Shown one piece after another: positions 4,652-23,002 of a stretch of DNA of 53,247 nucleotides. A program made the translations under genes and the position numbers. The stretch spans positions 1 to 53,247 of the forward strand of contig JAAYCR010000095.1 of NCBI GenBank assembly GCA_012729675.1, written 5' to 3'. The notes beneath the pieces were generated by a model. That model searched no databases. It had not been told where the DNA came from and saw only the letters and a list, made by a program, of their open reading frames with translations. Within the stretch, counting starts at the first letter, position 1, and each line of letters begins with the position of its first letter. This DNA comes from Phycisphaerae bacterium (GTDB lineage: Bacteria; Planctomycetota; Phycisphaerae; Sedimentisphaerales; Anaerohalosphaeraceae).

Positions 4652-5266
4652 ATGAAAAGCGTATGGATAATCGCAGCGGTGGTATCGGTTGTGCTGTGCG
4701 GCTGTCAGCAGCAGACGCGGAATATTGATATGGTCAACGATACGGGCAAGGCGGTGATGGCGCTGGACTACCGGGATTTTGACCAGGCGGCGACGGCGAT
4801 GGTCGAATCGCTGATTCAGTCGGGCGTTCTGAGCAAGCCCGGCGGCGGGCGGTATGTGGTGGCGACGGGGCGTATCGTCAACGATACGATGCAGCGGATC
4901 GACACCGACCAGTTGATGGCCAAGATCGAACAGGAGATTATGAACAGCGGCCAGGTGGTGATGACGTCGGCGGTCGGAGGTCGGGGCGCGACCGATATAA
5001 TGATCGATGAGATGCGTTATATCCGCGACTCCGCGGGGGCCGGGGAGTTCGCCGGCGAAACACTGCCCCAGGCCGGCCAGCTTATTGCGCCGGAACTGAG
5101 CATTTCCGGGAAAATCATTCAGCGAAATATCCGGTATGATCAAAACACCGAGCAAGTCGAATACTATTTTCAGCTTCAACTGAGCGAAATCGCCCGCGGT
5201 CTGCGCTACTGGCAGGAAGAGACACTCATCGGCAAGCGCGGCGACCGGCGAGCCGTCTCGTGGTGA
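4652..5266 (+). CDS. LpoB-like (COG3417 / CsgG-clan) lipoprotein
   Basis: Lipoprotein signal (VVLCGCQQ), ~204 aa. The VATGRIVNDTMQRIDTDQL stretch resembles the 'VDSVNNRTNGSL' region of LpoB. Gene order with the YcfL-like gene matches ycfL-lpoB. Confidence 0.45.
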   Translation: MKSVWIIAAVVSVVLCGCQQQTRNIDMVNDTGKAVMALDYRDFDQAATAMVESLIQSGVLSKPGGGRYVVATGRIVNDTMQRIDTDQLMAKIEQEIMNSGQVVMTSAVGGRGATDIMIDEMRYIRDSAGAGEFAGETLPQAGQLIAPELSISGKIIQRNIRYDQNTEQVEYYFQLQLSEIARGLRYWQEETLIGKRGDRRAVSW

Positions 5267-5395
5267 CATCGAAGCAGTTGACATTCTGGATGCAGTTTCG
5301 TCCTGTAAAAGGTTGTTTGCACGGTTTGAATAACCGGGTATAATGAGGGATTAAGCGGCACGATAAACCAGAGAGTGTACATCGAGATAATAGAT

Positions 5396-6454: not shown

Positions 6455-6481
6455 CACGAACCCTCAAAAGGATTTTTGAAG

Positions 6482-6997
6482 ATGAAATTGATTTATGCGA
6501 TGGCGGGAGTCGTCCTCTCCGTCCTGATGATCGGTTGCGGACAGGGCGGTTTTGCGGGCTATCAGAACGAGTGGCTGCATCCGCAGGATATGTCCAGCGT
6601 CTATGTCGAGATGTTCGACGCGGGCGGGTTTCGGCGCGGCCATGAATTCAAGCTGACCGAGGCCGTCTGTAAACGGATCGAGGCCCAGACGCCGTACAAG
6701 ATTGTCACCGACCGCTCGCTGGCCGATTCGATCCTGAGCGGCACCGTGACCACCGGATCGGGCGTCATCGCCGGCGACCGCCACACCGGCCGACCGCTGG
6801 AACAGGAAGCACTGGTGGAGGTCCGCGTGACGTGGAAAAACCTCAAGACCGGGCACATCCTGCTGGACAACGAGACCGTCTATGCCTCGGCAAGCTTTTC
6901 CGAGCAGATGGGGCAGACGTTTGACTCTTCCGCGGATGCCGCACTGAACAAAGCGGCCCACCGCGTGGTAGAACTGATGGAACGGCCATGGCAATAA
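6482..6997 (+). CDS. LptE-like lipoprotein
   Basis: Lipobox (LMIGCGQ), ~170 aa. Overall LptE-like layout, with a C-terminal 'VYASASF...AALNKAAHRVVELM' segment comparable to the C-terminal alpha/beta region of E. coli LptE. AAAGGA Shine-Dalgarno 10 nt upstream of ATG 6482. Confidence 0.4.
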   Translation: MKLIYAMAGVVLSVLMIGCGQGGFAGYQNEWLHPQDMSSVYVEMFDAGGFRRGHEFKLTEAVCKRIEAQTPYKIVTDRSLADSILSGTVTTGSGVIAGDRHTGRPLEQEALVEVRVTWKNLKTGHILLDNETVYASASFSEQMGQTFDSSADAALNKAAHRVVELMERPWQ

Positions 6998-7095
6998 CAA
7001 ATAAAAAGTAAACGATAAAAAAGAAAAGATAATAATGACGGATTCGGCGTTTGGCCGAAGCTGTTTCGATCAAGCAAGCAATTTTATAGGATATA

Positions 7096-9159
<2,064 letters not shown>

Positions 9160-9340
9160 ATGCGTCACGGGGCAGCGGGCAGGCTCGCAGGTCTTCTGCA
9201 ATGGCGTCGGGCGCGATGGTTTGACGGCGGAAAAAAATTAAAAAAAGGCCGGACGCTGTTTCATTGAGACACATATAAATATTTGCCTTATAGAAATTTA
9301 CGGCGATTTTTCAGAATCCGAATAAATCGGAATTTTATGT

Positions 9341-9368
9341 TTGACTATCCCGTAGGAGACGGTATAAT
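9341..9368 (+). promoter_or_regulatory. Near-consensus sigma70 promoter (TTGACT-16 nt-TATAAT) driving the pspA operon
   Basis: TTGACT at 9341-9346 and a perfect TATAAT at 9363-9368. A ~125-nt leader with inverted repeats (cagcttc...gaagctg; ccggtttcgggccgg) precedes the pspA ATG at 9500. Confidence 0.4.
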
Positions 9369-9499
9369 TATGTCAGCTTCGTGCCGCTCGCGTGAAGCAG
9401 CACACGTTATGAAGCTGGAAAAATGATCAGAAAGTCTCGAATGGCTTTCGTCATTGGTGATTCCGGTTTCGGGCCGGAAGCCGAAGAAAGGGGAACACT

Positions 9500-10183
9500 A
9501 TGGGCATTTTCAAACGTCTCCACCGTATCACCCTCGGTCGGATCGAAGCTTTTTTGGACAGAGCGGAAGATCCGGAAAAAGTATTTCCTGTTCTTATTCA
9601 GGAAATGGAATCTCAACTCCAGGCCGCCACAGACGCCGAGGCCAAAGCCTTGGCCGCCCTGAAAGGGGCACAGCGGGATTTTCAGCGTCAACAGGACAAG
9701 GTCCAGCGGTTTGCGCAGGGTGCGGCATTGGCCCTCAAAAACGGCGATGAGGCCACCGCTCGCATGTCCGTCGAGGCGCAACTCGAAGCGGAAAAAATGC
9801 TTGCGATTTCCCAGCAGAACGTGGACATGGCCACAGACGCGCGCGATCACGCCACGGCGGCACGACGGAGAATTCAGCGTCAGCTTGAAGAACTGATGAT
9901 GAAAAAGGACGATCTTCTGACTCGTGCCCGCGTGGCCAAAACGCAGCAAAAGATCCAGCGTACCGTCGGCGGCTCTGTCGGGTCGTCGGACAGCATTTTG
10001 GATGCGGTTGCCCGGCTGGAGTCCGGCATCGAAGAGGCCGAGGCCGAATTGGAGATTCAGGCCGATCTGACCGGCGAGTCGTATGCCGCGCCGTCGCTGG
10101 AACGGCGATTGGCGGAACTGGATCGCCAGTCCGAGATCGAAAAACGGCTCGATGCGATTCGACAGCAGGTCGCTAACGAATAA
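9500..10183 (+). CDS. pspA: PspA/IM30/Vipp1 family protein (paralog 1)
   Basis: The N-terminus MGIFKRLHRITLGRIEAFLDRAEDPEKVFPVLIQEMESQL matches the canonical PspA start (MGIF..., AEDP, QEME). Coiled-coil-rich, 227 aa. Shine-Dalgarno AAAGGGGAA. Confidence 0.9.
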   Translation: MGIFKRLHRITLGRIEAFLDRAEDPEKVFPVLIQEMESQLQAATDAEAKALAALKGAQRDFQRQQDKVQRFAQGAALALKNGDEATARMSVEAQLEAEKMLAISQQNVDMATDARDHATAARRRIQRQLEELMMKKDDLLTRARVAKTQQKIQRTVGGSVGSSDSILDAVARLESGIEEAEAELEIQADLTGESYAAPSLERRLAELDRQSEIEKRLDAIRQQVANE

Positions 10184-10306
10184 GAACCGACGGGCATTCT
10201 CCGTCGGATCGGATGTCGGTCTATAGATGAGAGGTCTGAATCGTGCGGGGTGACCGCGCATCAGGTCTCGACGGGGAGTTGCCGTCTTGTGCAAAGGAGA
10301 TTGACG

Positions 10307-10975
10307 ATGAGTATTTTTGATCGAATACGCCGTATCACCAAGTCCAATGTGAATTGGCTGCTGGATATGGCCGAGCCGGCCGAGCAGGAACTGGAAGCTC
10401 GCATCCGTGAACTGGAAGAAACCCTGATGGAAGGGCGTGAAAGCGCCGCCGCTTATGGCGCCACCTGCCGACGGCTTGCCAATGAACTCTCCCAGTTGAA
10501 GACGCGGGAAGCAGAGTGTCTGCAACGCGCCGAAGCCGCCATGAAGGCCGGGGATGAAAAAACGGCCCGTGCGGTTCTCCAGCAGAAGGTTCAGTTGTCC
10601 GAGCGCATCGCGCAAATGACGCCGGGCGCCGAAAAAGCCCAACACACGTTTGAGAAGCTCCGGGACAATCTGGTTGTGCTCCAACAGCAGTTAAAAGATG
10701 CCAAGCTCAAGCTTCAGGACCTGCGTACGCGCCTGAAGATTGCCGACGCCCAAAAGCAGTTTGATGCGCATTTGCAGAAATCCGTCTCGACGCATCCGGA
10801 CGGTCTGGCGTTTGAGCGTCTGGAAGATCAGGTTGCTCAACGCGAGGCGGAGGTCGAAGTCCGCGCCGAGTTGCAGGCCGGGGCGATGAGCGATTACGAG
10901 CTGGACCGGCAGTCGCGCGACTTGCAGGTCGAGGCCGAATTGCAGGCGCTCAAAGATAAACTGGACGGCCGGTAG
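10307..10975 (+). CDS. PspA/IM30 family protein (paralog 2)
   Basis: The start MSIFDRIRRITKSNVNWLLDMAEPAEQELE (ATG 10307) has a strong AAAGGAG Shine-Dalgarno 7 nt upstream; the track start 10250 is an extension. Coiled-coil, 223 aa. A 7-bp stem hairpin (ccgacgg...ccgtcgg, 10186-10215) lies in the 123-nt spacer after paralog 1. Confidence 0.85.
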   Translation: MSIFDRIRRITKSNVNWLLDMAEPAEQELEARIRELEETLMEGRESAAAYGATCRRLANELSQLKTREAECLQRAEAAMKAGDEKTARAVLQQKVQLSERIAQMTPGAEKAQHTFEKLRDNLVVLQQQLKDAKLKLQDLRTRLKIADAQKQFDAHLQKSVSTHPDGLAFERLEDQVAQREAEVEVRAELQAGAMSDYELDRQSRDLQVEAELQALKDKLDGR

Positions 10976-10995
10976 CGCAGAAAGGAGCCGATGCG

Positions 10996-11655
10996 ATGAT
11001 GGAATTGCTCTATGCGGCGTTTTTGCCGGGCAATCTGTTCTTTACAGTGCTCTTGCTGCTGGTGCTGCTCTATTGGCTTCTGGTGATACTGGGCGCAATG
11101 GATTTTAATTTTCTGGACATCACCTTTGACGGCGATGTGGACATGGATGTCGATGTGGACGCCGATGCGGATATGGAGTTTCACCCCGGCGGCATTATGC
11201 GGAGCATAATGGATTTTTTTTACATCGGCGAAGTGCCGATGATGGTCTTGGTCAGCCTGTTCGCGCTGTCGGCCTGGACGATTTCGGTATTGGCCAATTA
11301 TTACCTTAATCCGAACGGATTGCTGATTCTGCTGCTGCCGATTCAGGCCGCCAATCTGCTGGTCAGCGGCGTCATCGTCAAGGTCGTCGGCGTGCCGCTG
11401 AAAGTGCTGTTTCGCTCGTTCGAGAAGGACGCCAACGCGCCGCGGCAGGTGGTCGGACGCATCTGTAAAATCGTCACCACCGAAGTATCCGGCAAGCGCA
11501 TCGGCCAGGGCGAAATGAGCGGCAAAGGCGCCCCGATTCTGCTGAATGTCATTGCCGAAGGCGACCATGTGTTTCACAAAAATGACGAGGCGGTCGTGGT
11601 CGGGAAAGACCCCGAAACAAACGTGTATAAAATCGCACCTGTAGAAATCGATTAA
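10996..11655 (+). CDS. YqiJ/NfeD-like membrane protein (DUF1449-type; flotillin partner)
   Basis: N-terminal TM helices, an acidic DVDMDVDVDADADME stretch, further TM helices, and a C-terminal soluble OB-like domain. Its position immediately upstream of a flotillin gene matches yqiJ-yqiK and yuaF-floT. AAGGAG Shine-Dalgarno. Confidence 0.6.
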   Translation: MMELLYAAFLPGNLFFTVLLLLVLLYWLLVILGAMDFNFLDITFDGDVDMDVDVDADADMEFHPGGIMRSIMDFFYIGEVPMMVLVSLFALSAWTISVLANYYLNPNGLLILLLPIQAANLLVSGVIVKVVGVPLKVLFRSFEKDANAPRQVVGRICKIVTTEVSGKRIGQGEMSGKGAPILLNVIAEGDHVFHKNDEAVVVGKDPETNVYKIAPVEID

Positions 11656-11672
11656 TGTTAAAGGAGATGATT

Positions 11673-13664
11673 ATGTTGGCGATAGTAACCGAAGCATTGG
11701 GCGTGGTCTTGACCCTTTCACTGATTATTGTGGTCGGGCTTCTTGCCCTGTTTGTCAAGTGTTATAAGAAAGTATCTCAAGGCCAGGCGCTGATTCGCAA
11801 CGGCATGGGAGGAACGCAGGTGAGCTTTTCGGGAAAGATGGTCATCCCGATCCTCCACAAAGTCGAGTTTATGGATATTTCCGTCAAACGCATCGAGATC
11901 GACCGGCACGGCGAGTCGGGGCTGGTCTGCAAAGACAACCTGCGCGCCGATATCAAGGTGGCGTTTTTCGTGCGGGTCAACAATTCGATTGATGACGTCA
12001 AAAAGGTCGCCCAGTCGCTGGGCTGTGCCCGCGCGTCGGACGAACGGGCGCTGTACGAGCTGTTTGACGCCAAGTTTTCCGAGGCCCTCAAGAGCGTCGG
12101 CAAGCGCTTTGATTTTGCGGAGCTGTACGTGTCCCGCGTGGAATTCAAAGAGGAGATCCTCCAGATCATCGGCACAGACCTGAACGGGTATGTGCTTGAG
12201 GATGCGGCCATCGATTACCTGGAGCAGACCGACAAGAAACTGCTCAACCCCGACAACATTCTGGACGCCGAGGGCATCAAGAAGATTACCGTGCTGACCG
12301 CTGCGCAATACGAGATGGCCAACAGCCGCGAACGCGAAAAAGATAAGACCATCACACAGCAGAATGTCGAGGCACAGGAAGCGATTCTTGAACTGAACAA
12401 GCAATTGGCCGAGGCGGAAGCCAAGCAGAAACGCGAAATCGCCACTGTTCAGGCGCGCGAAGAAGCCGAAGCCAAAAAAGTGCAGGCCGAAGAACGCCAG
12501 AAGCACGAACGCGCACGCATCACCGCTGACGAAGAAATCGCGGTGGCCGAAGAAAACCGGCTGCGGCAGATCATTGTCGCGGCCAAAAATAAAGAACGCA
12601 CCGACGCGGTTGAAACCGAGCGCGTCGAACGCGACCGCGGGCTTGAGCGCGTCGAACGCGAACGGCTGGTGACGATTGCACAGGTCGAAAAAGACAAGAT
12701 CGTCGAAGGCGAGAAGAAGAATCTTCAGGCCGCGATCCGGGAGCGCGTCACGGTCGAAAAGACGGTGGTCGCCGAAGAGGAACGCATCAAAGACACCCGC
12801 GAATTCGCCACCGCCGACCGAAGCAAGCGCGTCGAGATCACCAAGGCCGAAGAACAGGCCGAACAGGCGCTGGTCATCGACATCAAAAAGGCCGAGGCGG
12901 CCAAGAAGGCCGAAGAGTTTTACGCCCAGCAGAAGCTTATCGACGCCGAGGCCAATCTGGAAGCGTCCCGGAAAAACGCCGAGGCCAAAAAAACCATCGC
13001 CGCCGCCCAGATCAAGGAACACGCCGTGCAGGGCATGGCCGAGGCCGAGGTGCAGGAAGCCAAGGCCGTCGCGCTGGAAAAAGAAGGCACTGCTGAGGCG
13101 ACGGTGATGGAGCGCAAGTATCATGCCGAGGCCGACGGCATCCGCGACAAGGCCGAAGCGATGAAGATTTTCGACGCCGTGGGCAAAGAGCACGAGGAAT
13201 TCAAGCTCAAGCTCAACAAAGATCTGAAAATCGAGCTGGCCGAGGTGCACGTCCACAAAGACATCGCCGCCGAACAGGCCAAGATTGTCGGCGAAGCCCT
13301 TAAGTCGGCCCGCATCGACATCGTCGGCGGCGACAACAACTTCTTCAATCGGCTGGTCAATTCGATCACCACGGGCAAATCCGTTGACCGGATGGTCGAT
13401 AACAGCGCTGTGCTGGCCGACGTTCGGCAGGCACTGCTGGGCAAAGACGCCGATGAATCGGTCGCCAAGATTCGCCAGTTTGTCTCCCGGTTCGGCGTTA
13501 CCAGCGAAGACGTCAAAAACCTGTCCGTCTCGGCGCTGGTGATGCAGATGATGGACAAGGCCGACAAAAAAGACAAGGGCGTGCTTGGCTCGATTCTGGA
13601 AACGGTCAAACAAAGCGGCCTGGCCGATCTGCCCGCCAAAGACCTTGGTTTATCGGGCAAATAA
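11673..13664 (+). CDS. Flotillin-like SPFH/Band-7 protein (YqiK/FloT-type) with a long E/A/K-rich coiled-coil
   Basis: An N-terminal TM helix, then an SPFH domain (…VSKRIEIDRHGESGLVCKDNLRADIKVAFFVRV…), then ~300 aa of EA-repeat coiled-coil. AAGGAG Shine-Dalgarno 6 nt before ATG 11673; the track start 11655 overlaps the upstream stop. Confidence 0.85.
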   Translation: MLAIVTEALGVVLTLSLIIVVGLLALFVKCYKKVSQGQALIRNGMGGTQVSFSGKMVIPILHKVEFMDISVKRIEIDRHGESGLVCKDNLRADIKVAFFVRVNNSIDDVKKVAQSLGCARASDERALYELFDAKFSEALKSVGKRFDFAELYVSRVEFKEEILQIIGTDLNGYVLEDAAIDYLEQTDKKLLNPDNILDAEGIKKITVLTAAQYEMANSREREKDKTITQQNVEAQEAILELNKQLAEAEAKQKREIATVQAREEAEAKKVQAEERQKHERARITADEEIAVAEENRLRQIIVAAKNKERTDAVETERVERDRGLERVERERLVTIAQVEKDKIVEGEKKNLQAAIRERVTVEKTVVAEEERIKDTREFATADRSKRVEITKAEEQAEQALVIDIKKAEAAKKAEEFYAQQKLIDAEANLEASRKNAEAKKTIAAAQIKEHAVQGMAEAEVQEAKAVALEKEGTAEATVMERKYHAEADGIRDKAEAMKIFDAVGKEHEEFKLKLNKDLKIELAEVHVHKDIAAEQAKIVGEALKSARIDIVGGDNNFFNRLVNSITTGKSVDRMVDNSAVLADVRQALLGKDADESVAKIRQFVSRFGVTSEDVKNLSVSALVMQMMDKADKKDKGVLGSILETVKQSGLADLPAKDLGLSGK

Positions 13665-13774
13665 CAGACGGTGACCGCTAACTGAACCCTGCGGTCGGTC
13701 TGTGGTGGCGCTGGACAGCATAGCGCCGCCGCGGCCGAACCCGGCGTGAATCGAATTTCGCAAAGAAACGACCT

Positions 13775-16700
13775 ATGGCAGACAAAAACGAACACACGAC
13801 ACAGGCCCCCGCCGCATCGGATACGCTGCAGGGCGGCACCTACGAGGTGATTCAGAATCGCCTCGCAACGCACGGCAAAGACCTGCTGGGCCGCCTGACC
13901 AAACTCAATACGCTGCGTAAGAGCGTTTTCGGCGCCATCGATACCAAGCTGCTGTCCAGCGACCGCATTACCACCGACAACTACTGTGTGCCGCGCGATA
14001 TGGTGTCCATCGGGGATTGTTTTATCTTCGGCTACAATGTCTTTATCGGGCTTCGCACGGAAACGACGCTGGCAGATGTCTTCACGATTTATCGCCGGCA
14101 GGACGGGACGATGGTTCCCTGCGGGCTGGAGATGATCGGCAATGCGACGTTTGAGACGGATTTCAAAAATCTCTACAAATACTATCGCTACGCGACTTTT
14201 GTCAAGTTCGCCATCATCGGCCCTCATCTGTTTATGGTCTTTCGCATCGGCAAAGACATCACCGACATCAAGACCTTTAAATGGCTCATGCGCAGCGACC
14301 GTCTGGAATACATCGATAACCGCAGCGATCACGAGTACCGATACCCCCCGCAGCATGAGTTCGAATGGACGCGCGTCACGCAGGATATGCATCGCAGCGG
14401 CCTGCATCCGCACATCTCCATCGAAGACAAGGTCTTCGTCGAGACCACCGAAGGCGATTTGACAATCAAGGTCGAAGACAACACCGCAAGCGGGCAGGGC
14501 ATTTACAGCGAACCGGTTGACGATCCCGACCAGACGCTCAGCGATGCGGAGATCTATTACGCGATTGTCGGCGAGATTGTCCTGCTGAAAATCCGTCCGT
14601 ACAAGGAAAAGCTCTTCCGCTATTTCATTTATAACCATAAGATTCAGCAGGCGCTTCGGGTCGATTCGATCCAGGACGCCTGTGTGCTGCTGCCGGAAGG
14701 CCACGGCCTGGTGTTCCCCCGCGGCTACTATCTCAAGACCGGCCAGGTCAAGCAGTTCGATACCGACATCCGCGACCTGATTTTTGAAAAACGCATCGGG
14801 TCGCCCAACGGCGAGGACACGCTGTATGTGTTTTACAATCGGCTCAGCGGCGATTATGTGCTGCTGTCGTACAATATGATCGAACAGACCATGCTGGTGC
14901 CGACCGTCTGCAACGGCTACTCGTTTTTTGACGACGGCACGCTGCTGCTGTTCCGCGCCGACGGCGAGCCGCAAAAGCACCACGTCGTTCAAATCTGGCA
15001 GACGCCGTACTACCATCCCGATCACCCGATCGCGGTTCGCACCGATACAGACCTCTACAAAATCGGCAACAAAACCATTGTCCGCTGTATGGCCGAGTGT
15101 ACGGAATTGCTGAACCTGATTCATAAAGACAAGCCCTATGCGGAGTTGTATGTCGATATCAGCAAGAAGGCCGAAGGGTTGTGCGACAGCTATTTCTGGC
15201 TGGGCGAGGCGGTCGTCGGCAACCTTCTGGAGCCGCTCAAGGCCATTCAGCAGGCGGCGACGGCGGCGATTGACGAATACGAAAAAGTCGTGCGGACCCG
15301 CCAAAGCACCCGCGACCAGATCCAGCAGGTCCGGCAGCGCATCACCGAGGCGATTGATGCGATTGACGATGCCGTCCCCGACGACATCGATTTTTATGTG
15401 ACGCATCTGACGACACTGCGAACGCTTCGCGGCCAGGCCGTATCGCTCAAAGACCTGCGGTACGCCGACCTCGACCTGGTCGCGTCGCTCGAAAACGACG
15501 TGGCCGAACACGCCGATCGGCTTGCCGAACAATGCGTGCAATTTTTGCTCCAGCCGGAATCGCTGGAGCCGTACCGGCAGCGCACACAGCATCTGGCCGA
15601 GCAGGTGCCCGGTCTTGAAAAGGCCGCCGACGCCAAAGCACTTCGCCAACAGACGGATGAGGCGGCCGGACAACTGGAAATGCTCACCGAGATCGTCAGC
15701 AACCTGAAGATTACCGACGCGACCGAAACCGTGGCGATCATCGACGCGATCTCGCTGGTCTATTCGGAGATCAATCAGCTCAAGTCGCGCCTGCGCAACA
15801 AGCATCAGGACCTGGCCGCCGTCGAAGGCCGCGCCGAGTTCGCCTCGCAGATCAAACTCATCGAACAATCCGTGATTAACTATCTGGAGGTCTGCGATAC
15901 GCCGGAAAAATGCGATGAGTACTTGACCAAAATTTCCGTGCAGCTCGAAACGCTGGACAGCCGCTTTGCCGAGTTCGACGAATTCGTGCTGCTGCTGACC
16001 GAAAAACGCGAGGATGTCTATAACGCCTTCGAATCGCGAAAGCAGTTGCTCATCCAGCAGCGTAATCAGCGAGCGGTGGTGGTGATGACCGCCGCCGAGC
16101 GCGTCCTCAAGGGCATCCAAAACCGCGTCTATGCGATGACCGATGTCAACGAGATCAACGGCTACTTCGCCTCCAACCCGATGATCGAGCGGGTGCGGGA
16201 CAATATCGCCCAACTCGAACAACTGGGCGATTCGGTCAAGGCCGAAGACATCAAGAGCCGCCTCAAGACCCTCCAGCAGGACGCCATCCGCCAACTCAAA
16301 GACAAGCAGGCCCTGTACGAAGACGGCGACAACATCATCCGGTTCGGCAGCCACCGCTTCTCCGTCAACAAGCAGCCGCTGGAAGGCACCCTCGTCCGAC
16401 AGGGCGAGGCGCTGTATTATCATCTGACCGGTACGGGCTTTTTCGAACCGATTGACGATGTCGCCATCACGGCCGCCAAAGACCTCTGGCAGATGGACGT
16501 CGTCTCCGAAAGCGAAGCGGTCTATCGCGCCGAATATCTCGCCTGGCAGATGCTCGAACAGATGGACGACGCCGCCCGCGCCGAAGCGCTTCGTGATGAA
16601 TCGCTTGAGGGGCTGACCGGCCGCATCCAGGCGTTTATGGCGCCTCGGTTCGATGAGGGTTATGTCAAGGGCGTGCACGACCATGACGCCGCCAAAATTC

Positions 16701-19108
16701 TGCACGCGCTGCTGATGCTGCACGCGACCATCGGTCTGCTGCGTTACCCGGCGGCTTGCCGGACGCTGGCGGCGGTCTTCTGGGCGTTGTTTGAAGAAGG
16801 GCAGGAAAAGAAGCGCATCGCCGACTTGCTGGCCGGGGCAGGCCATATCCAATCGCTCTTTGCCGACCCGAACGTCCGCAAGAGCTATCAGGCGAGGTTG
16901 GCCGAACACATCGGCCGCTTTGCCGAAACCTCCGGCCTGTTTGATTCGGCGCAGGCCGGGCTGGCGGCCGAGTATCTGTTTGAGGAGCTTGCCGAGACAG
17001 GCCCCTTTGCGGCCAGCCGACGGGCGAGCGATCTGCGGCGGGACTTCGAGCAATACCTCCGCGATCAGGATTCCTTCGAGCGGTTCGCCGATACGATTCA
17101 GTCGCTGGCGTCGGATCCGCCGGCCGTGTTCGGCCTGCTGCGGGACTGGGTGGCGTCATGGCTGGCTCGCACCGACCGAAACGAGATGGCCGAATACATC
17201 GACGAGGCCGCCTTCCTGCTCCATCCGCTGTCGCCGCCGCGTACGGTGATCGATCACGCGGTCACGTGTACCATCGCGGAGATGGCCGGGTCGCATCCGA
17301 GGATACAGCAGGGCCTCTACAGGCTGCATTACGGTGATTTTGTGACGCGGCTTTACCACCATATGCATCATGTCACGCCCCGGTTTATCCAGTGCCAGCA
17401 GGCCAAAAAACGGCTCGTCGAACAATACAACCAGGCGCTTTGCCTGGAGGAATTCCAGAGCAAGGTGCTGACCACCTTTGTGCGCAACAAACTCATCGAT
17501 TTGGTCTATCTGCCGCTGATCGGCGACAGCCTGGCCAAGCAGATCGGCACTGCCGATCAAACCAAACGCACCGACCGGCAGGGCCTGCTGCTGCTGATAT
17601 CTCCGCCCGGCTACGGCAAAACAACGCTGATGGAATACGTCGCCAACCGGCTGGGGCTGATTTTCGTCAAGGTCAACGGCCCGGCCCTCGGCCGTCAGGT
17701 CACCTCGTTCGATCCCGGCGAGGTGTCCAACGCCGCCGCCCGCAAGGAACTGGAAAAGCTGAATCTGTCCTTCGAGATGGGCGACAACGTGATGATTTAC
17801 GTCGACGACATCCAGCACACCAACCCGGAATTCTTGCAGCAGTTTATCTCGCTGTGCGACGCCCAGCGCCGCGTCGAAGGCGTCTATAAAGGCCGCTGGC
17901 GCACCTATGATTTTCGCGGCAAGCGGGTTTGCGTGGTCATGGCGGGCAACCCCTACACCGAAAGCGGCGAAAAGTTCAAAATTCCCGATATGCTCAGCAA
18001 CCGCGCCGACACTTACAACATCGGCGATATCGTCGGGGATAACGCCGACGCCTTTGAACTGAGCTTCATCGAAAACAGCCTGACGTCCAACTCGGTTCTG
18101 CAAAGCGTTGCCCGACGCAGCCAGAACGACATCGATGTTATGATCAAAATGGCTCAAACCGGCGACAAAGAGGGCATTGAGTTCGAAGACACGTACTCGG
18201 CCGACGACCTGAACGAGTACGTCAACACGCTTCGGAAGCTCTTTGTTGTGCGTGATGTCGTGCTCAAGGTCAACCAGCAGTACATCGCCTCCGCCGGGCA
18301 GGCCGACGCATACCGTACCGAACCGCCGTTTCTGCTGCAAGGCTCGTACCGCAATATGAACCGCATCGCATCCCGCGTGCTGCCGGTGATGAACGATCAG
18401 GAACTGTGGACGCAAATCTATTCCAGCTATGAGCAGGACGCCCAGACGCTGACTTCCGGGGCCGAGTCGAATCTGCTCAAGTTTCGCGAGATGATCGGGC
18501 AATTGGACGACACGCAGGCCGCCCGCTGGTCGGACATCAAGAAAACGTTCTGTCGTAACAAGCTGCTCGGCGGCGACTCCGACGACAAAATCTCTCAGGT
18601 CGTCGGCCAGTTGAATGCCTTCGGCGCCGGGCTGGACGCCATCCGCGACACCATCGCCGACAGCGTGATGACCCTCGCCGCCAAAACGGTCGAGCCGGCT
18701 CAAACGGCATTGGCACAGGAACAGTTCAATCAAGTTTCTGATCAGATGCTCGAACGCCTCAATCAGGTGATTGCGGCCATCAAAGAACAAGGGACGGCAC
18801 TGGTGCAGCGGCAAACCGAACACGGGCAGCTCGAAGAGGCCAAACAGTCGCAAAAAAGTACCGAAATGCTGGTCTCCGTTCTGGAAGAGCAATTCCGCAC
18901 GCTGGAAACATGGCTGATTCCGGTACACAAAAGCGACGCGGATCGAGTCGAATATTTTCAACACCTGATGGAACGCTTCGAAACGATGGTCTCCGGCTAC
19001 ACGCGCCTGATGGACGCCTTGAGGAAAAAATACGAACCATTGCTGAAAAAATCAAAAACCGAAAACCCGTCCCCTTCAAAGCCGTCGCATAAAAAGGGGC
19101 AAAAATAA
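13775..19108 (+). CDS. Giant (1777 aa) protein with N-terminal beta-rich region, long helical middle, and a C-proximal AAA_5/MoxR-type ATPase domain
   Basis: Uninterrupted ORF in frame with its neighbours. Walker A-like LLLLISPPGYGKTT (17609-17626). Walker B VMIYVDDIQH (17789-17809). Sensor VCVVMAGNPYTESGEKFKIPDMLSNRADTY (~17945), like the xNP/'DRF' region of MoxR/McrB/midasin-type AAA_5 domains. No other domain recognised by eye. Confidence 0.75.
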   Translation: MADKNEHTTQAPAASDTLQGGTYEVIQNRLATHGKDLLGRLTKLNTLRKSVFGAIDTKLLSSDRITTDNYCVPRDMVSIGDCFIFGYNVFIGLRTETTLADVFTIYRRQDGTMVPCGLEMIGNATFETDFKNLYKYYRYATFVKFAIIGPHLFMVFRIGKDITDIKTFKWLMRSDRLEYIDNRSDHEYRYPPQHEFEWTRVTQDMHRSGLHPHISIEDKVFVETTEGDLTIKVEDNTASGQGIYSEPVDDPDQTLSDAEIYYAIVGEIVLLKIRPYKEKLFRYFIYNHKIQQALRVDSIQDACVLLPEGHGLVFPRGYYLKTGQVKQFDTDIRDLIFEKRIGSPNGEDTLYVFYNRLSGDYVLLSYNMIEQTMLVPTVCNGYSFFDDGTLLLFRADGEPQKHHVVQIWQTPYYHPDHPIAVRTDTDLYKIGNKTIVRCMAECTELLNLIHKDKPYAELYVDISKKAEGLCDSYFWLGEAVVGNLLEPLKAIQQAATAAIDEYEKVVRTRQSTRDQIQQVRQRITEAIDAIDDAVPDDIDFYVTHLTTLRTLRGQAVSLKDLRYADLDLVASLENDVAEHADRLAEQCVQFLLQPESLEPYRQRTQHLAEQVPGLEKAADAKALRQQTDEAAGQLEMLTEIVSNLKITDATETVAIIDAISLVYSEINQLKSRLRNKHQDLAAVEGRAEFASQIKLIEQSVINYLEVCDTPEKCDEYLTKISVQLETLDSRFAEFDEFVLLLTEKREDVYNAFESRKQLLIQQRNQRAVVVMTAAERVLKGIQNRVYAMTDVNEINGYFASNPMIERVRDNIAQLEQLGDSVKAEDIKSRLKTLQQDAIRQLKDKQALYEDGDNIIRFGSHRFSVNKQPLEGTLVRQGEALYYHLTGTGFFEPIDDVAITAAKDLWQMDVVSESEAVYRAEYLAWQMLEQMDDAARAEALRDESLEGLTGRIQAFMAPRFDEGYVKGVHDHDAAKILHALLMLHATIGLLRYPAACRTLAAVFWALFEEGQEKKRIADLLAGAGHIQSLFADPNVRKSYQARLAEHIGRFAETSGLFDSAQAGLAAEYLFEELAETGPFAASRRASDLRRDFEQYLRDQDSFERFADTIQSLASDPPAVFGLLRDWVASWLARTDRNEMAEYIDEAAFLLHPLSPPRTVIDHAVTCTIAEMAGSHPRIQQGLYRLHYGDFVTRLYHHMHHVTPRFIQCQQAKKRLVEQYNQALCLEEFQSKVLTTFVRNKLIDLVYLPLIGDSLAKQIGTADQTKRTDRQGLLLLISPPGYGKTTLMEYVANRLGLIFVKVNGPALGRQVTSFDPGEVSNAAARKELEKLNLSFEMGDNVMIYVDDIQHTNPEFLQQFISLCDAQRRVEGVYKGRWRTYDFRGKRVCVVMAGNPYTESGEKFKIPDMLSNRADTYNIGDIVGDNADAFELSFIENSLTSNSVLQSVARRSQNDIDVMIKMAQTGDKEGIEFEDTYSADDLNEYVNTLRKLFVVRDVVLKVNQQYIASAGQADAYRTEPPFLLQGSYRNMNRIASRVLPVMNDQELWTQIYSSYEQDAQTLTSGAESNLLKFREMIGQLDDTQAARWSDIKKTFCRNKLLGGDSDDKISQVVGQLNAFGAGLDAIRDTIADSVMTLAAKTVEPAQTALAQEQFNQVSDQMLERLNQVIAAIKEQGTALVQRQTEHGQLEEAKQSQKSTEMLVSVLEEQFRTLETWLIPVHKSDADRVEYFQHLMERFETMVSGYTRLMDALRKKYEPLLKKSKTENPSPSKPSHKKGQK

Positions 19109-19122
19109 CGAAATGACGTCAA

Positions 19123-19839
19123 ATGGGCAAGATCGATCGCCTAAAACGCATTACCATGGCCCGGATTGAGGCCTTTTTGGATTCGCTCGAAAAACCCGAA
19201 CTGATACTGCCCCAACTCCTCAACGAGATGGAACAGCAGATGCGCGAGGCGGCCGCGGCCAAGGCCAAGGCACTCTCGGCGGTCAAGGGCGCGCGGCGTC
19301 GGCTTGATGAGGCCGCCGGAAGATCGCTTCGGCTGGAACGGGGCGCGGCGCTGGCCGTCCGGGCCAATGATCTGAAAACCGCCCGTCAGGCGCTGGCTGC
19401 CCAACTTGAGGCCGAAAAGCAGTATCAACGGCATCAGACGGAACTGGAAAACGTGGAGAAGGCCTATCTGGCCGCGGAGGCGGTCTTTAAACAGATTTCG
19501 GAAAACCGGGATGCGCTTAAGAAGAAAAACGCACAGCTTCTCAAGCAGCATCGCCAACAGCAGGTAATCCAGATACTGTGCGACCAATATACGCGATCCG
19601 TCATCGAACCCAAACAGAGTATCCTGGACGCCGTGATCCGCATCGAGACCAATATCGAGCAGCAGCAAATCAAACTTGAGGCGAATAACGACCTCGCCAG
19701 GATTCTCGGTGCCGGCGCCATTGAAGAACACATCAAATCCCTCGAACACATAGCCCAGGTCGAGGAGCGTCTGGCCGCGTTAAAAAAACAGCTTCGCGCG
19801 GAAAACGCCCCGGATTCGCAACACAACCCGGGCAATTGA
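19123..19839 (+). CDS. PspA/IM30 family protein (paralog 3)
   Basis: MGKIDRLKRITMARIEAFLDSLEKPELILPQLLNEMEQQMREA has the PspA-like N-terminus (ARIEAFLD…EKPE…NEMEQQ). It starts 15 nt after the stop of the giant ORF. 238 aa coiled-coil. Confidence 0.8.
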   Translation: MGKIDRLKRITMARIEAFLDSLEKPELILPQLLNEMEQQMREAAAAKAKALSAVKGARRRLDEAAGRSLRLERGAALAVRANDLKTARQALAAQLEAEKQYQRHQTELENVEKAYLAAEAVFKQISENRDALKKKNAQLLKQHRQQQVIQILCDQYTRSVIEPKQSILDAVIRIETNIEQQQIKLEANNDLARILGAGAIEEHIKSLEHIAQVEERLAALKKQLRAENAPDSQHNPGN

Positions 19840-19972: not shown

Positions 19973-21211
19973 ATGATTACGGCGATTTTGATTTTTGCGT
20001 TGACGTATCTGATAATCTGCGGACGCAGGCTGCATTTTATCCGGCTGGGGCGACCGGCCGGCGTTATGCTGGGGGCGGTGCTGATGGTCGCCGCACGGGT
20101 CATCACCCCGGCACAGGCGTATGAACTGGTCAACTGGAACACGATAGTCCTGCTGCTGGGGATGATGATTATTATCGAGCATCTGGCGGATGCGGAATTT
20201 TTCGAGCTGATCGCCGGGTGGATTCTCGGCCGCGGGCTGTCCTCGCGCGGGCTGCTGGCAGTGGTGGTGTTTCTCATCGGCTCGCTGGCGGCGTTTCTGG
20301 TCAATGATATCGTGTGCATTTTTTTTACGCCGCTGCTGCTGGTGATGCTGCGAAGGCGCAGCCTGCCGCCGCTGCCGTTTTTGCTGGCGCTGGCGACTTC
20401 GGCCAATCTGGGCGGGCTGATTGCGTTTACCGGCAACCCGCAGAATATGATTATCGGACATCTGTCGGGGATTTCGTATGCCCGGTTTTTTGTGCTGATG
20501 CTGCCGGTGGGCCTGCTGACGCTGGCGGTCAACTATGCCCTGTTGGTGTGGATGTATCGAAAGGAACTGGACAAGGCCGACGGTCATCCGGCCGCCAAAG
20601 AAGATATCCCCTCGCCGAAACCGCTGCTGAAGCGATCGCTGCTGGTGACCGCGCTGGTCATCGCGGGGTTTTTTGCGGGCGGCAATATGGCCTGGGTCGC
20701 GCTGGCCGGGGCAACGCTGCTGCTGCTTTTGGCGCGACGGGAGGAGGTCGCCGTCTTGAGACGCATCGACTGGAATCTGCTGGTGTTCTTTGCGGGGCTG
20801 TTTGTGGTGGTCGGGGCATTGTCGCGCTCCGGGGCAACGGCGTATATCGCCGCCGCGGCGGATCGCTATATTCACGGCCAAAGCATCGCATCGTTCTGGG
20901 CGTTCGGCGCTATCAGCGTCGTCTGTTCGAATCTGTTTTCCAACGTGCCCTATGTGTTGGTGGCGGCCGAATGGGTCGAGCAACTGCCCGACCCGACGCT
21001 GATGTGGTACATCCTGGCGTTTGCCAGCACGGTGGCGGGCAATCTGACGATCCTCGGGTCGGTGGCCAATGTCATCGTCGTCGAACGGGCGCGGGGGGCC
21101 TGCGACATCGGCTTCGGCGACTTCCTGCGGTTCGGGGTACCCTCGACCGTGCTGAATTTTGTCGTGGGTATGGCGTTTCTGACGCTCTATCACCATTTGG
21201 AATGGATATAA
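19973..21211 (+). CDS. ArsB/NhaD-superfamily anion permease (YbiR-like)
   Basis: ~12 TM helices and a two-repeat permease architecture. The motif NWNTIVLLLGMMII is typical of ArsB/NhaD/CitMHS permeases. Confidence 0.65.
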   Translation: MITAILIFALTYLIICGRRLHFIRLGRPAGVMLGAVLMVAARVITPAQAYELVNWNTIVLLLGMMIIIEHLADAEFFELIAGWILGRGLSSRGLLAVVVFLIGSLAAFLVNDIVCIFFTPLLLVMLRRRSLPPLPFLLALATSANLGGLIAFTGNPQNMIIGHLSGISYARFFVLMLPVGLLTLAVNYALLVWMYRKELDKADGHPAAKEDIPSPKPLLKRSLLVTALVIAGFFAGGNMAWVALAGATLLLLLARREEVAVLRRIDWNLLVFFAGLFVVVGALSRSGATAYIAAAADRYIHGQSIASFWAFGAISVVCSNLFSNVPYVLVAAEWVEQLPDPTLMWYILAFASTVAGNLTILGSVANVIVVERARGACDIGFGDFLRFGVPSTVLNFVVGMAFLTLYHHLEWI

Positions 21212-21293: not shown

Positions 21294-22535
21294 CTATAAG
21301 GCCGATGCGGTTTTTGCGGCTGATTGGGCGGCGAGCATTCCAGTTGACCACGCGATTTGGAGGTTGTAGCCGCCGCAGGGGCCGTCGGCGTTGAGGGTCT
21401 CGCCGGCGAAGAACAGGCCGGGGCAAAGGCGTGACTGCATGGTTTTGGGGTTGATCTCGTTGAGGGCAACGCCGCCGCGGGTGACCGTCGCCTGGGCCAG
21501 CGGGGCGGTAGCAGTGAGGGTCAGGGGAAGCTTTTTGATCAGATCGGCCAGTTTTCGGCGGTGTTCCTTTTTGAGCTGCCCGGCCAGCACGGTATGCGAC
21601 GGCTCAGTCATCTCGGTCAGCTTGATCGCCAGCGCCCGCGGCAGTAGGCCGGTCAGGATGGCCGCCATCTCGCGTTTGGCGTGGGCGGCACACTGTTCGA
21701 TGAGCAGGGCGTCGAGGGCGTCGGGCGGCGTGTCTGGGAGAAAATCGACAGTGACGGGCACGGGGCCGCGGCTTTCGAACAGGGTGTCGGTGATCTGGCG
21801 GCTCAGATCGAAGGCGGCCGGACCGCCGAGGCCGTTTTCGGTAAAGATCATCGCGCCGGCGCATTTTTTGCGGTTGCCTTTGGCCTGAAGGACGACCTGC
21901 TCAATGGCCACGCCCTGCAGGTCATTGATCCACGGCTCAGAGGCGACGACCGGGCAGACGGAGGCGCGGGGCGGGACGATGGTGTGGCCGAAGCTTTTGG
22001 CGAAGCGATAACCGTCGCCGTCGCTGCCGGTGTGCGGCCAGGAGACGCCCCCGGTGGCGATCAGGATCGTCCGCGCGGAGATCGTTTGGTCAGGGGTGCG
22101 GAGCGTAAAGGTGTCGGCGGACTTCTCGACCGCCTCGACGCGGCGGCCGTAGATGTACTGTACGCCGGCTCGGCGGGCGTCGTCCCGCAGGATGCGGCAG
22201 ACATCGGTCGCGCGGTCGGTGATGGGAAAGACGCAGCCGTCTTTTTCGATCTTGCAGGCCAAGCGGCGCTCGGCGAAGAATTGGACGACGGTATCCGGGC
22301 TGAAGGTGTAGAGGGCGTGCCTGAGAAATTTGCCGCAGTCGGTGTAGGTGCGGACGAGTTCATCGACGGGGGCTTGGTGTGTCAGGTTGCAGCGGCCGCC
22401 GCCGGTCTTGAGGAGCTTGCGGCCCAGGGCACTGTTGCGTTCGATGACGCAGACGGATGCGCCGGTTTGCCCGGCATGCACCGCCGCCATCAATCCCGCC
22501 GCCCCGCCGCCGATAATCGCTATGTCAAACGGCAT
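21294..22535 (-). CDS. HI0933/BaiN-family FAD-dependent flavoprotein (NAD(P)/FAD-dependent oxidoreductase)
   Basis: Start MPFDIAIIGGGAAGLMAAVHAG (ATG 22535, GGGAGA Shine-Dalgarno) with the GxGxxG dinucleotide fold, then RKLLKTGGGRCNLTH as in HI0933-like proteins. The track ORF extends to 22760 across the rnpB region and is an artefact. Confidence 0.8.
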   Translation of the reverse strand: MPFDIAIIGGGAAGLMAAVHAGQTGASVCVIERNSALGRKLLKTGGGRCNLTHQAPVDELVRTYTDCGKFLRHALYTFSPDTVVQFFAERRLACKIEKDGCVFPITDRATDVCRILRDDARRAGVQYIYGRRVEAVEKSADTFTLRTPDQTISARTILIATGGVSWPHTGSDGDGYRFAKSFGHTIVPPRASVCPVVASEPWINDLQGVAIEQVVLQAKGNRKKCAGAMIFTENGLGGPAAFDLSRQITDTLFESRGPVPVTVDFLPDTPPDALDALLIEQCAAHAKREMAAILTGLLPRALAIKLTEMTEPSHTVLAGQLKKEHRRKLADLIKKLPLTLTATAPLAQATVTRGGVALNEINPKTMQSRLCPGLFFAGETLNADGPCGGYNLQIAWSTGMLAAQSAAKTASAL

Positions 22536-22613
22536 TTTCAGTCTCCCATCGGTCTGATGCGCAGAACCGATGCCACCCGACCAATAGTCACTACTAATCA
22601 CTAGCCAATCATA

Positions 22614-23002
22614 AATGAGTGGGTCTGTAAGCCGAGTTCTGTCTCCGCCCGAAGGCGGATGGCGGTCATTACACTCGACCGGCCGTCGCCGACCGGCTCT
22701 GCCGAAAGGTCTCCCCGTCGGCATGCAACCTACCCGCTGCGAGATGCCCGGGCCGAGCACGCAGCATACTTGGTCTTGCAGGCGGTGGGGTTTGCCCTGC
22801 CGTCGCCGTTACCGACGACGCGGTGCGCTCTTACCGCACCATTTCACCCTTACCGCGGGGGATTCAAACCCCCGCGGCGGTATATTTTCTGCGGCACTTT
22901 CCCGCGGGTCGCCCCGGGCGGCCGTTAGCCGCCACCGTGCCCTATCCTGCTCGGACTTTCCTCCGGATGTGTTTCAATCCGGCGACCGCCCGACCCACTC
23001 AA
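22614..23002 (-). ncRNA. rnpB: RNase P RNA (bacterial type A)
   Basis: The minus strand reads …GAGUGGGUCGGGCGGUCGCCGGAUUGAAACACAUCCGGAGGAAAGUCCGAGC… (P4 motif), …GGUGCGGUAAGAGCGCACC…, and a 3' end …ACAGAACUCGGCUUACAGACCCACUC. The P1 helix pairs GAGUGGGUC with GACCCACUC. The ORFs 22615..23016, 22659..22928 and 22823..23062 on this span are spurious. Confidence 0.85.

What the first reader, a model, noticed from the sequence alone, without database searches (positions are those of the whole stretch)
13775..19108. Giant protein with a single C-proximal AAA_5/MoxR-like ATPase module and ~1200 aa of unassigned N-terminal sequence
Seen in the sequence: a 5.3-kb uninterrupted ORF. Residues ~1-440 are aromatic and beta-strand-like (e.g. 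YNVFIGLRTE, YRYATFVKFAIIG, LYVFYNRLSGDYVLLSYNM, GYSFFDDGTLLLFRADGE). Residues ~450-1230 are strongly helical with coiled-coil-like heptads. Residues ~1260-1430 carry the ATPase motifs LLLLISPPGYGKTT (Walker A), VMIYVDDIQH (Walker B) and VVMAGNPYTE…IPDMLSNRADTY (sensor/xNP region typical of MoxR, McrB, GvpN, midasin and dynein AAA_5 domains). About 350 further helical residues follow.

Inference: a single-AAA_5, multi-domain architecture of this size is unusual for bacteria. Together with its placement between PspA paralogs it is a candidate for a new family of membrane-remodelling or polymer-disassembling ATPases. The N-terminal beta region could be a propeller-like interaction platform.
Basis: partly seen in the sequence, partly recalled or inferred. 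Interest (0 to 1): 0.8.

Follow-up and report, generated by a model that had tools for sequence, protein, structure and literature searches.

The report
Flotillin-linked giant MoxR-type AAA+ ATPase
The 1777-residue protein is real, but it belongs to a widespread and already catalogued (though never experimentally studied) bacterial family of giant ATPases that almost always sits next to a flotillin-type membrane scaffold gene and only sometimes next to PspA.

Summary

The N-terminus is not unassigned. Pfam DUF3686 covers residues 37-474 (E 3e-182) and DUF7902 covers 596-678. The family is not new. It has more than 4600 clusters at 90% identity, occurs in at least 589 species across about ten phyla, and NCBI names it "DNA repair ATPase" without visible basis. 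Ravi et al. 2024 (mSystems) already described this operon type: PspA, YqiJ, Band-7/flotillin and a "β-propeller + coiled-coil + AAA+" protein.

My context count changes the emphasis. A YqiK-type flotillin lies directly upstream in 63 of 66 loci and a YqiJ/NfeD-like gene in 55 of 63, but PspA is nearby in only 21 of 84.

Best reading (inferred): an ATP-driven remodeller of the flotillin/YqiJ membrane scaffold, with PspA as a lineage-specific co-client. It is a new member of a known, uncharacterised kind, of moderate interest.

The parts
9341..9368 (+). Sigma-70-like promoter match (TTGACT-16-TATAAT, 11/12) upstream of PspA1. It is a possible operon promoter, and the evidence is weak.
   Evidence: The total number of such matches in the region is no higher than in shuffled sequence.
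9500..10183 (+). PspA/IM30 paralog 1 (ESCRT-III superfamily), 227 aa.
   Evidence: Pfam PspA_IM30 E=7.8e-24. TIGR02977 E=7.6e-28, below the equivalog cut-off.
10250..10975 (+). PspA/IM30 paralog 2. The listed GTG start adds 19 non-conserved residues, so the likely true start is the ATG at 10307.
   Evidence: Pfam PspA_IM30 E=4.7e-28 over residues 21-234. Alignment with the other two paralogs.
10996..11655 (+). YqiJ/NfeD-like membrane protein, 219 aa: N-terminal hydrophobic segments and a C-terminal OB-like tail.
   Evidence: Pfam YqiJ_N E=1e-4. Homologs lie upstream of the ATPase in 55 of 63 related loci. The Deinococcus counterpart has a weak NfeD C-terminal hit.
11655..13664 (+). YqiK-type flotillin (SPFH) protein, 669 aa: TM anchor, SPFH domain, a long E/A/K-rich coiled coil and a conserved C-terminal region.
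   Evidence: No Pfam hit. BLASTP against E. coli K-12 YqiK gives 29% identity over 447 aa, E=2e-46. The N-terminus is 46% identical to a Band_7-positive protein of L001. The gene lies directly upstream of the ATPase in 63 of 66 loci. It is 86% identical to the L001 ortholog.
13775..19108 (+). Giant DUF3686-family AAA+ ATPase, 1777 aa, with no predicted TM segment.
13940..15019 (+). Residues 56-415: all-beta, divergent beta-propeller-like domain, the core of Pfam DUF3686 (37-474).
   Evidence: Pfam E=2.8e-182. The AF2 model has about 26 strands with pLDDT mostly 80-95. Foldseek matches DCAF1 WDR (E=1.2e-5), CyRPA, KLHDC3, prolyl oligopeptidase and the clathrin terminal domain. No internal sequence repeats were found.
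15050..16315 (+). Residues 426-847: long helices of up to 58 residues in spectrin-like or bundle arrangements. This stretch includes Pfam DUF7902 (residues 596-678, nt 15560-15808).
16337..17221 (+). Residues 855-1149: a small beta unit (855-892) followed by a helical domain (918-1149). Residues 1001-1160 are the least conserved stretch upstream of the ATPase core.
17567..18094 (+). Residues 1265-1440: MoxR-type AAA+ core.
- Walker A GYGKT, residues 1279-1283 (nt 17609-17623)
- Walker B D1344-D1345 (nt 17804-17809)
- pre-sensor-1 beta-hairpin, residues 1366-1379 (nt 17870-17911)
- sensor-1 N1392
- arginine-finger candidate R1410
18095..18574 (+). Residues 1441-1600: helical lid region with the invariant motif LQGSYR(N/D)M. 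R1526 is a sensor-2 candidate.
18575..19105 (+). Residues 1601-1777: coiled-coil tail. It is poorly conserved and absent from most distant family members (the 1600-1650 aa forms).
   Evidence: pLDDT 55-70. Gap fraction is 0.16 for residues 1601-1640 and 0.5-0.85 beyond that in alignment A2.
19123..19839 (+). PspA/IM30 paralog 3, starting 14 nt after the ATPase stop codon. The same arrangement occurs in related Phycisphaerae loci.
   Evidence: Pfam PspA_IM30 E=1.5e-12. Loci L001, L002, L003, L005 and L074. Junction sequence.

Best explanation
The gene encodes a full-length member of the DUF3686 giant AAA+ family. Databases name this family 'DNA repair ATPase' or 'MoxR-like ATPase'.

It is a soluble cytoplasmic protein. 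A divergent beta-propeller-like head is joined, through about 800 residues of helical bundles, to one MoxR-class AAA+ module.

The gene is the third member of a conserved three-gene module: a YqiJ/NfeD-like membrane protein, a YqiK-type flotillin, and the giant ATPase. In this Phycisphaerae genome the module is embedded among three PspA (ESCRT-III-like) paralogs, probably as one operon from about 9500 to 19839.

Proposed mechanism (inferred, not shown):
1. The AAA+ modules form a ring, as MoxR proteins do.
2. The long helical arms place the propeller heads on the cytoplasmic flotillin/YqiJ scaffold.
3. ATP turnover assembles, opens or dismantles that scaffold.
4. In lineages such as this one it also acts on the PspA polymers that SPFH proteins recruit to stressed membrane.
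For: Shown:
- Intact ORF, collinear with homologs.
- Domain content.
- Invariant GYGKT, DD, N1392, R1410 and R1526 in 62 members at 30-48% identity.
- The 669-aa neighbour is a YqiK homolog (E=2e-46).
- Flotillin lies directly upstream on the same strand in 63 of 66 loci, and YqiJ-like in 55 of 63. These loci span Planctomycetota, Bacteroidota, Verrucomicrobiota, Desulfobacterota, Clostridia and Fibrobacterota. The same holds in Proteus, Vibrio, Pseudomonas pQBR103, Streptomyces and Deinococcus.
- PspA is adjacent in Phycisphaerae, Bacteroidota and pQBR103.
- There is no TM segment.

From the literature:
- The same operon type was described, and a chaperone or membrane-dynamics role proposed (PMC11237479).
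- The SPFH protein YdjI is required to place PspA on the membrane in B. subtilis (PMC8581546).
- SPFH proteins form large cages (PMC13086221; PMC13000311, abstract).
Against: - No experiment exists on any family member, and searches by Pfam id found no paper.
- No physical contact with flotillin, YqiJ or PspA has been tested or modelled.
- Walker B is DD rather than DE in every member, so the protein may be a slow ATPase or a switch rather than a motor.
- Characterised MoxR proteins work with a VWA/MIDAS partner, and none is encoded nearby.
- The relative arrangement of domains in the AF2 model is uncertain (pTM 0.51).
- Gene adjacency cannot tell a role as remodeller of the scaffold from a role as client or user of the scaffold.
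Confidence: 0.5

Rival explanations
1. PspA-specific disassembly ATPase. In this reading it is a bacterial functional analogue of Vps4 that recycles ESCRT-III-like PspA polymers.
For: There are three PspA paralogs in the putative operon, and PspA3 starts 14 nt after the ATPase stop. PspA adjacency recurs in Phycisphaerae, Bacteroidota and pQBR103. Reviews state that no Vps4-like partner is known for bacterial PspA (PMC7619361).
Against: Only 21 of 84 loci have PspA within 10 kb. Verrucomicrobiota, Pirellulales, Clostridia, Proteus, Vibrio, Streptomyces and Deinococcus loci lack it, while flotillin is nearly always present. There is no MIT domain, and the AAA+ fold is MoxR-type rather than Vps4/classical.
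Confidence: 0.17
2. MoxR-style maturation chaperone for a client membrane complex. The flotillin/YqiJ platform only concentrates the client, and the ATPase acts on the client (cofactor insertion or complex assembly), not on the scaffold.
For: The nearest folds are CbbQ and NorQ, both maturation or activation chaperones. Ravi et al. propose chaperone-like assembly roles for Band-7 and AAA+ partners.
Against: No VWA/MIDAS adaptor and no conserved candidate client gene lies next to the triad. Clustering of neighbours found only flotillin, YqiJ and PspA, plus CesT/Tir and an HTH regulator in Bacteroidota.
Confidence: 0.15
3. DNA repair ATPase, as the Pfam description and NCBI product name state.
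For: Only the database names support this. A Shewanella YqiK mutant had a raised spontaneous mutation rate, which the authors attributed to iron and oxidative stress (PMC1468410).
Against: No DNA-binding or nuclease domain was detected. No DNA-repair gene is conserved nearby; all conserved neighbours are membrane-scaffold proteins. No NCBIfam model passes its threshold.
Confidence: 0.03
4. Membrane-acting stress or anti-phage module carried on accessory DNA.
For: In Vibrio vulnificus the triad sits among HipA, RNA-ligase, KTI12-like, TelA and NUDIX genes. It also occurs on megaplasmids and chromids, including pQBR103.
Against: There is no meaningful PADLOC hit: only IetA at E=0.004 over the P-loop. 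There is no match in phage genomes. In most phyla, and here, the locus is ordinary chromosome, with RNase P RNA and tRNAs nearby.
Confidence: 0.05

Closest known systems
DUF3686 / 'DNA repair ATPase' family, and the PspA / CesT-Tir / YqiJ / Band-7-flotillin / 'beta-propeller+coiled-coil+AAA+ ATPase' operon of Ravi et al. 2024 (mSystems, PMC11237479)
   Same: It has the same Pfam domains (DUF3686, DUF7902, AAA), the same length class and the same YqiJ-flotillin-ATPase gene order. PspA is adjacent, as in the Dokdonia example ANH61663.1.
   Different: This locus has three PspA paralogs, one of them immediately downstream of the ATPase. It has no CesT/Tir gene. Unlike its nearest relatives L001 and L002, it has no separate short Band_7 gene.
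MoxR-class AAA+ ATPases (CbbQ, NorQ, RavA; Pfam AAA_5/AAA_3)
   Different: It is about 1777 aa rather than about 270-500 aa and carries a 1260-residue N-terminal extension. Walker B is DD rather than DE. No VWA/MIDAS partner gene is present. The P-loop stretch resembles p97/Cdc48 at sequence level.
Vps4 / CdvC with ESCRT-III
   Same: It is an AAA+ ATPase encoded next to ESCRT-III-superfamily genes (PspA), which suggests polymer remodelling.
E. coli yqiJ-yqiK and B. subtilis pspA-ydjGHI (SPFH/NfeD modules)
   Same: The window flotillin is a YqiK homolog (E=2e-46) and is preceded by a YqiJ-like gene. A PspA-SPFH functional link has been shown in B. subtilis.
   Different: Those operons have no giant ATPase. 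The triad-type flotillin carries a C-terminal region of about 100 aa that E. coli YqiK matches poorly.
Midasin/Rea1 and dynein (AAA_5-related motors with long extensions)
   Same: An AAA_5-type module is joined to long helical extensions that end in a binding domain.

Membership tests
DUF3686 giant AAA+ family ('DNA repair ATPase') | N-terminal PF12458 domain above the gathering score | tested here: met
   606.6 bits against a cut-off of 25, residues 37-474.
DUF3686 giant AAA+ family ('DNA repair ATPase') | Full-length collinearity with family members (DUF3686 - DUF7902 - AAA) | tested here: met
   99-100% coverage against 1774-1788 aa homologs. The same precomputed Pfam set occurs in 120 of 120 top hits and in distant Gammaproteobacteria.
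DUF3686 giant AAA+ family ('DNA repair ATPase') | A role in DNA repair, as the name implies | not testable with these tools
   No supporting domain, neighbour or paper was found. The name looks like a legacy label.
Ravi et al. PspA-flotillin-YqiJ-AAA+ operon | YqiJ/YuaF-type TM protein, then a Band-7+coiled-coil+flotillin protein, then the beta-propeller+coiled-coil+AAA+ protein, all on one strand | tested here: met
   Genes at 10996-11655, 11655-13664 and 13775-19108.
Ravi et al. PspA-flotillin-YqiJ-AAA+ operon | CesT/Tir-PspA dyad at the head of the operon | tested here: not met
   PspA is present three times, but there is no CesT/Tir gene: only 340 bp lie between FtsH and PspA1. CesT_Tir_1 is present in Bacteroidota locus L010.
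MoxR-class AAA+ (clade 7, AAA_5/AAA_3) | Closest solved folds are MoxR proteins | tested here: met
MoxR-class AAA+ (clade 7, AAA_5/AAA_3) | Pre-sensor-1 beta-hairpin | tested here: met
   The AF2 model has strands at 1366-1371 and 1374-1379 just before beta4 (1385-1391). This is a prediction, not a solved structure.
MoxR-class AAA+ (clade 7, AAA_5/AAA_3) | Helix-2 insert | tested here: inconclusive
   An 18-residue conserved loop (VTS[FL]DP) lies between beta2 and alpha2, but no hairpin is modelled.
MoxR-class AAA+ (clade 7, AAA_5/AAA_3) | Canonical Walker B hhhhDE | tested here: not met
   DD (D1344, D1345) is invariant in 62 diverse members.
MoxR-class AAA+ (clade 7, AAA_5/AAA_3) | Pfam AAA_5 or AAA_3 hit above threshold | tested here: met
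   AAA_5 scores 24.5 bits against a cut-off of 22. Generic AAA scores higher (31.9 bits), and there is no AAA_3 hit.
MoxR-class AAA+ (clade 7, AAA_5/AAA_3) | VWA/MIDAS partner encoded nearby | tested here: not met
   No VWA domain occurs in any neighbour, here or in L001, L002, L084 or L085.
Vps4/CdvC | N-terminal MIT domain and a classical-clade AAA without a pre-sensor-1 hairpin | tested here: not met
Canonical beta-propeller (WD40/Kelch-type) | Repeated four-stranded blades recognisable by sequence or strong fold match | tested here: inconclusive

The most novel reading that the evidence does not exclude
The DUF3686 ATPase is the missing energy source of bacterial ESCRT-III/flotillin membrane repair. 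In this reading it is a roughly 1.2-MDa ring with six long arms that uses ATP to open or recycle flotillin cages and PspA polymers. That would make it a non-homologous functional counterpart of Vps4, and its unusual DD Walker B would tune it as a slow, load-dependent remodeller.
Probability: 0.2. Interest if true: 0.8.

Novelty: new member of a known kind. Interest (0 to 1): 0.45.

Why it matters
Bacterial PspA/Vipp1 and flotillin scaffolds are currently thought to work without a dedicated ATPase; a 2025 review says a Vps4-like partner appears absent in bacteria. A widespread family of about 1700-aa MoxR-type ATPases that is tightly linked to flotillin genes, and recurrently to PspA genes, is the obvious candidate to fill that gap. 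No member has been studied experimentally.

This window adds no new family. It does offer a clean example with three PspA paralogs. The survey done here points experiments toward flotillin/YqiJ as the primary partner and toward tractable hosts: Proteus mirabilis, P. fluorescens pQBR103, Streptomyces and Hymenobacter. It also flags the database name 'DNA repair ATPase' as unsupported.

Tried and rejected
- hhalign of putative blades against the whole beta domain found no internal repeats.
- Pfam gave nothing for the 669-aa neighbour, even at E up to 10. BLASTP against E. coli YqiK identified it.
- BLASTP of the YqiJ-like protein against E. coli YqiJ was not significant (E=0.15). The assignment rests on a borderline Pfam YqiJ_N hit and on conserved position.
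- PADLOC gave no real hit, and phage genomes gave no match, so I did not pursue a defence role.
- NCBIfam has no family model for the protein.
- Literature searches for DUF3686, PF12458, DUF7902, 'flotillin + MoxR' and 'DNA repair ATPase + flotillin' found nothing relevant.
- FtsH just upstream looked interesting because HflK/C regulate FtsH, but the adjacency is absent from the closest relatives.
Full report
**Observation**

The ORF at 13775-19108 on the + strand is real. It begins with ATG, runs 1777 codons and has one stop, at the end.

A frameshift or assembly join is excluded. Homologs of 1774-1788 aa align over 99-100% of the length at 70-73% identity. Relatives down to about 30% identity keep the same length class of 1600-1930 aa. 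An exact-sequence cluster member is NLW85154.1, 'AAA family ATPase [Phycisphaerae bacterium]', on a 53,275-nt contig. The window is therefore very probably a Phycisphaerae (Planctomycetota) MAG contig. It is ordinary chromosome, with RNase P RNA and four tRNAs.

**Anatomy of the protein**

Pfam assigns three regions:
- DUF3686 (PF12458) to residues 37-474, E=2.8e-182
- DUF7902 (PF25472) to residues 596-678, E=3.7e-24
- generic AAA (31.9 bits) and AAA_5 (24.5 bits, threshold 22) to residues 1272-1397

The N-terminal two thirds are therefore catalogued, although as domains of unknown function.

Two AF2 models built on 70-sequence alignments were reasonably confident: residues 1-1160 with pLDDT 82.1 and pTM 0.51, and residues 1149-1777 with pLDDT 79.6. 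Together they give:
- a helix at 20-52
- an all-beta domain of about 26 strands at 58-410
- long helices (up to 58 residues) at 426-847
- a small beta unit at 855-892
- a helical domain at 918-1149
- the AAA+ core at about 1265-1440
- a helical lid region to about 1600
- a lower-confidence coiled-coil tail at 1601-1777

There is no transmembrane segment: the maximum 19-residue hydropathy is 1.48.

**The ATPase module**

Sequence searches of the PDB matched only about 40 residues around the P-loop of p97/Cdc48. That says little about the AAA+ clade.

Across 62 family members at 30-48% identity the following are invariant:
- SPPGYGKT
- D1344 and D1345
- MAGNPYTE, which contains sensor-1 N1392
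- PDML[AS]NRAD, which contains R1410
- LQGSYR in the lid, which contains R1526

The family is therefore not a set of degenerate pseudo-ATPases. One departure is unexplained: Walker B is DD, followed by invariant Q-H, in every member, instead of the usual DE.

**The beta domain**

**How common the family is**

The family is large:
- 720 clusters at 50% identity match residues 1-480, 254 of them at E below 1e-30.

Named hosts span Planctomycetota, Bacteroidota, Verrucomicrobiota, Desulfobacterota, Clostridia, Fibrobacterota, Gammaproteobacteria (Proteus mirabilis, Vibrio, Pseudoalteromonas, and Pseudomonas fluorescens plasmid pQBR103), Persicimonas, Actinomycetota (Streptomyces, Nonomuraea) and Deinococcus.

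NCBI calls these proteins 'DNA repair ATPase' and JGI calls them 'MoxR-like ATPase'. I found no domain, neighbour or paper that supports a DNA-repair role.

**Surroundings**

On the same strand the window encodes, in order:
- FtsH (7096-9159)
- PspA1 (9500-10183)
- PspA2 (10250-10975)
- a YqiJ_N-positive membrane protein (10996-11655)
- a 669-aa protein (11655-13664)
- the giant ATPase (13775-19108)
- PspA3 (19123-19839)
- a CitMHS transporter (19973-21211)

The 669-aa protein has no Pfam hit. It is nevertheless a clear homolog of E. coli flotillin YqiK, at 29% identity over 447 aa with E=2e-46. Gaps between the genes from PspA1 to PspA3 are 0-110 nt. A good sigma-70-like match lies at 9341-9368, so a single operon is plausible but not shown.

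**Conservation of context**

I searched six-frame ORFs of 84 related loci with profiles built from the window's neighbours.
- A flotillin homolog lies directly upstream on the same strand in 63 of 66 loci that have enough upstream sequence. One search counted 58. Five further loci were scored as missing only because the two ORFs overlap, and one search shows the flotillin there.
- A YqiJ-like gene precedes the flotillin in 55 of 63 loci.
- PspA occurs within 10 kb in only 21 of 84 loci. These are some Phycisphaerae and many Bacteroidota.
- Proteus, Vibrio, Streptomyces and Deinococcus have the triad without PspA.
- pQBR103 has it at the end of a PspA / DUF2491 / DUF350 / DUF1190 / glutathionylspermidine-synthase operon.
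- Bacteroidota loci add a CesT_Tir_1 gene and an HTH regulator.

The flotillin is the most conserved partner. It is 86% identical between the window and L001, where the ATPase is 72% identical, and it averages about 3 bits per column across phyla. It also has a C-terminal region of about 100 aa that E. coli YqiK matches poorly.

**Prior knowledge**

Ravi, Anantharaman, Aravind, Gennaro and colleagues (mSystems 2024, PMC11237479) describe this neighbourhood. [quoted passage not shown] They note that shorter operons with only flotillin, YqiJ and sometimes the ATPase are more widespread. Their Table S3 entry for Dokdonia reads 'Betapropeller+Coiled-coil+AAA-ATPase'.

The PspA-SPFH link has experimental support in B. 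subtilis, where YdjI is needed to place PspA on the membrane (PMC8581546). A 2025 review still states that a Vps4-like ATPase appears absent in bacteria (PMC7619361). I found no experimental paper on this ATPase family.

**Interpretation**

Identity is secure. This is a DUF3686-family, MoxR-class giant AAA+ ATPase in a YqiJ-flotillin-ATPase module, here expanded with three PspA paralogs.

Mechanism is inferred. By analogy with MoxR rings and with AAA_5 motors that carry long extensions, I propose a ring whose helical arms put propeller heads on the cytoplasmic flotillin/YqiJ scaffold. ATP turnover would assemble, open or dismantle that scaffold. PspA polymers would be co-clients where PspA genes are linked.

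The near-obligate flotillin linkage favours this reading over a PspA-specific, Vps4-like role. The Vps4-like role remains possible in this lineage. A MoxR-style client-maturation role, a defence role and the 'DNA repair' label are less well supported, for the reasons given under rivals.

The main weaknesses are:
- No interaction has been tested.
- Walker B is DD.
- MoxR proteins usually need a VWA partner, and none is present.
- The domain arrangement in the AF2 model is uncertain.

**Verdict**

The claims of an unassigned N-terminus and of a new, unusual family are wrong, and the emphasis on PspA should shift to flotillin/YqiJ. I rate it a new member of a known but experimentally untouched kind, of moderate interest.

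Noticed in passing
window 7096-9159 (+): A full-length FtsH (TIGR01241, E=1.8e-227) lies 340 bp upstream of PspA1. This is suggestive, because SPFH proteins HflK/C regulate FtsH. However, the adjacency is absent in the closest relatives L001 and L002.
   Followed up: partly
L001 7331-7885; L002 7229-7801; L010 6993-7544: Close relatives carry an extra short (184-190 aa) TM+Band_7-only paralog between the YqiJ and flotillin genes. The window lacks it.
   Followed up: partly
window 17804-17815 (residues 1344-1347): Walker B is DD followed by Q-H, invariant across the family, instead of DE. The catalytic base is unclear.
   Followed up: partly
window 13365-13664 (flotillin residues ~570-669): The triad-type flotillin has a moderately conserved C-terminal extension of about 100 aa that aligns poorly with E. 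coli YqiK. It is a possible docking site for the ATPase.
   Followed up: partly
L085 (Vibrio vulnificus) 4000-19800: Here the triad sits in what looks like an accessory island, among RNA ligase, KTI12/AAA_33, R2K, HipA/HTH, TelA and NUDIX genes.
   Followed up: no
L086 (P. fluorescens SBW25 plasmid pQBR103) 1-12247: The megaplasmid carries PspA - rhomboid - DUF2491 - DUF350 - DUF1190 - glutathionylspermidine synthase - YqiJ-like - SPFH - ATPase in one direction. This joins the yjf-type polyamine/PspA operon to the triad.
   Followed up: no
window 19973-21211 (+); L009 5108-6778; L087 1-324; L084 1925-3250: Anion or ArsB/NhaD/CitMHS-type transporters lie near the triad in several unrelated lineages. 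This may be coincidence.
   Followed up: no
window 42001-44000 and 43955-45457 (+): GC content drops to 0.43, against about 0.56 elsewhere, next to tRNA-Glu (42200-42273, -). The adjacent gene is a HerA_C/DUF87 ATPase (E=4.8e-219). This may be an acquired segment.
   Followed up: no
window 22612-23001 (-): Bacterial RNase P RNA class A (275.8 bits). An aminoacetone-oxidase-family flavoprotein gene is called at 21294-22760 (-), and its listed 5' end overlaps the RNase P RNA by about 150 nt.
   Followed up: no
window 10250-10306: The GTG start listed for PspA2 adds 19 residues that have no counterpart in PspA1 or PspA3. The ATG at 10307 is the likely start.
   Followed up: partly
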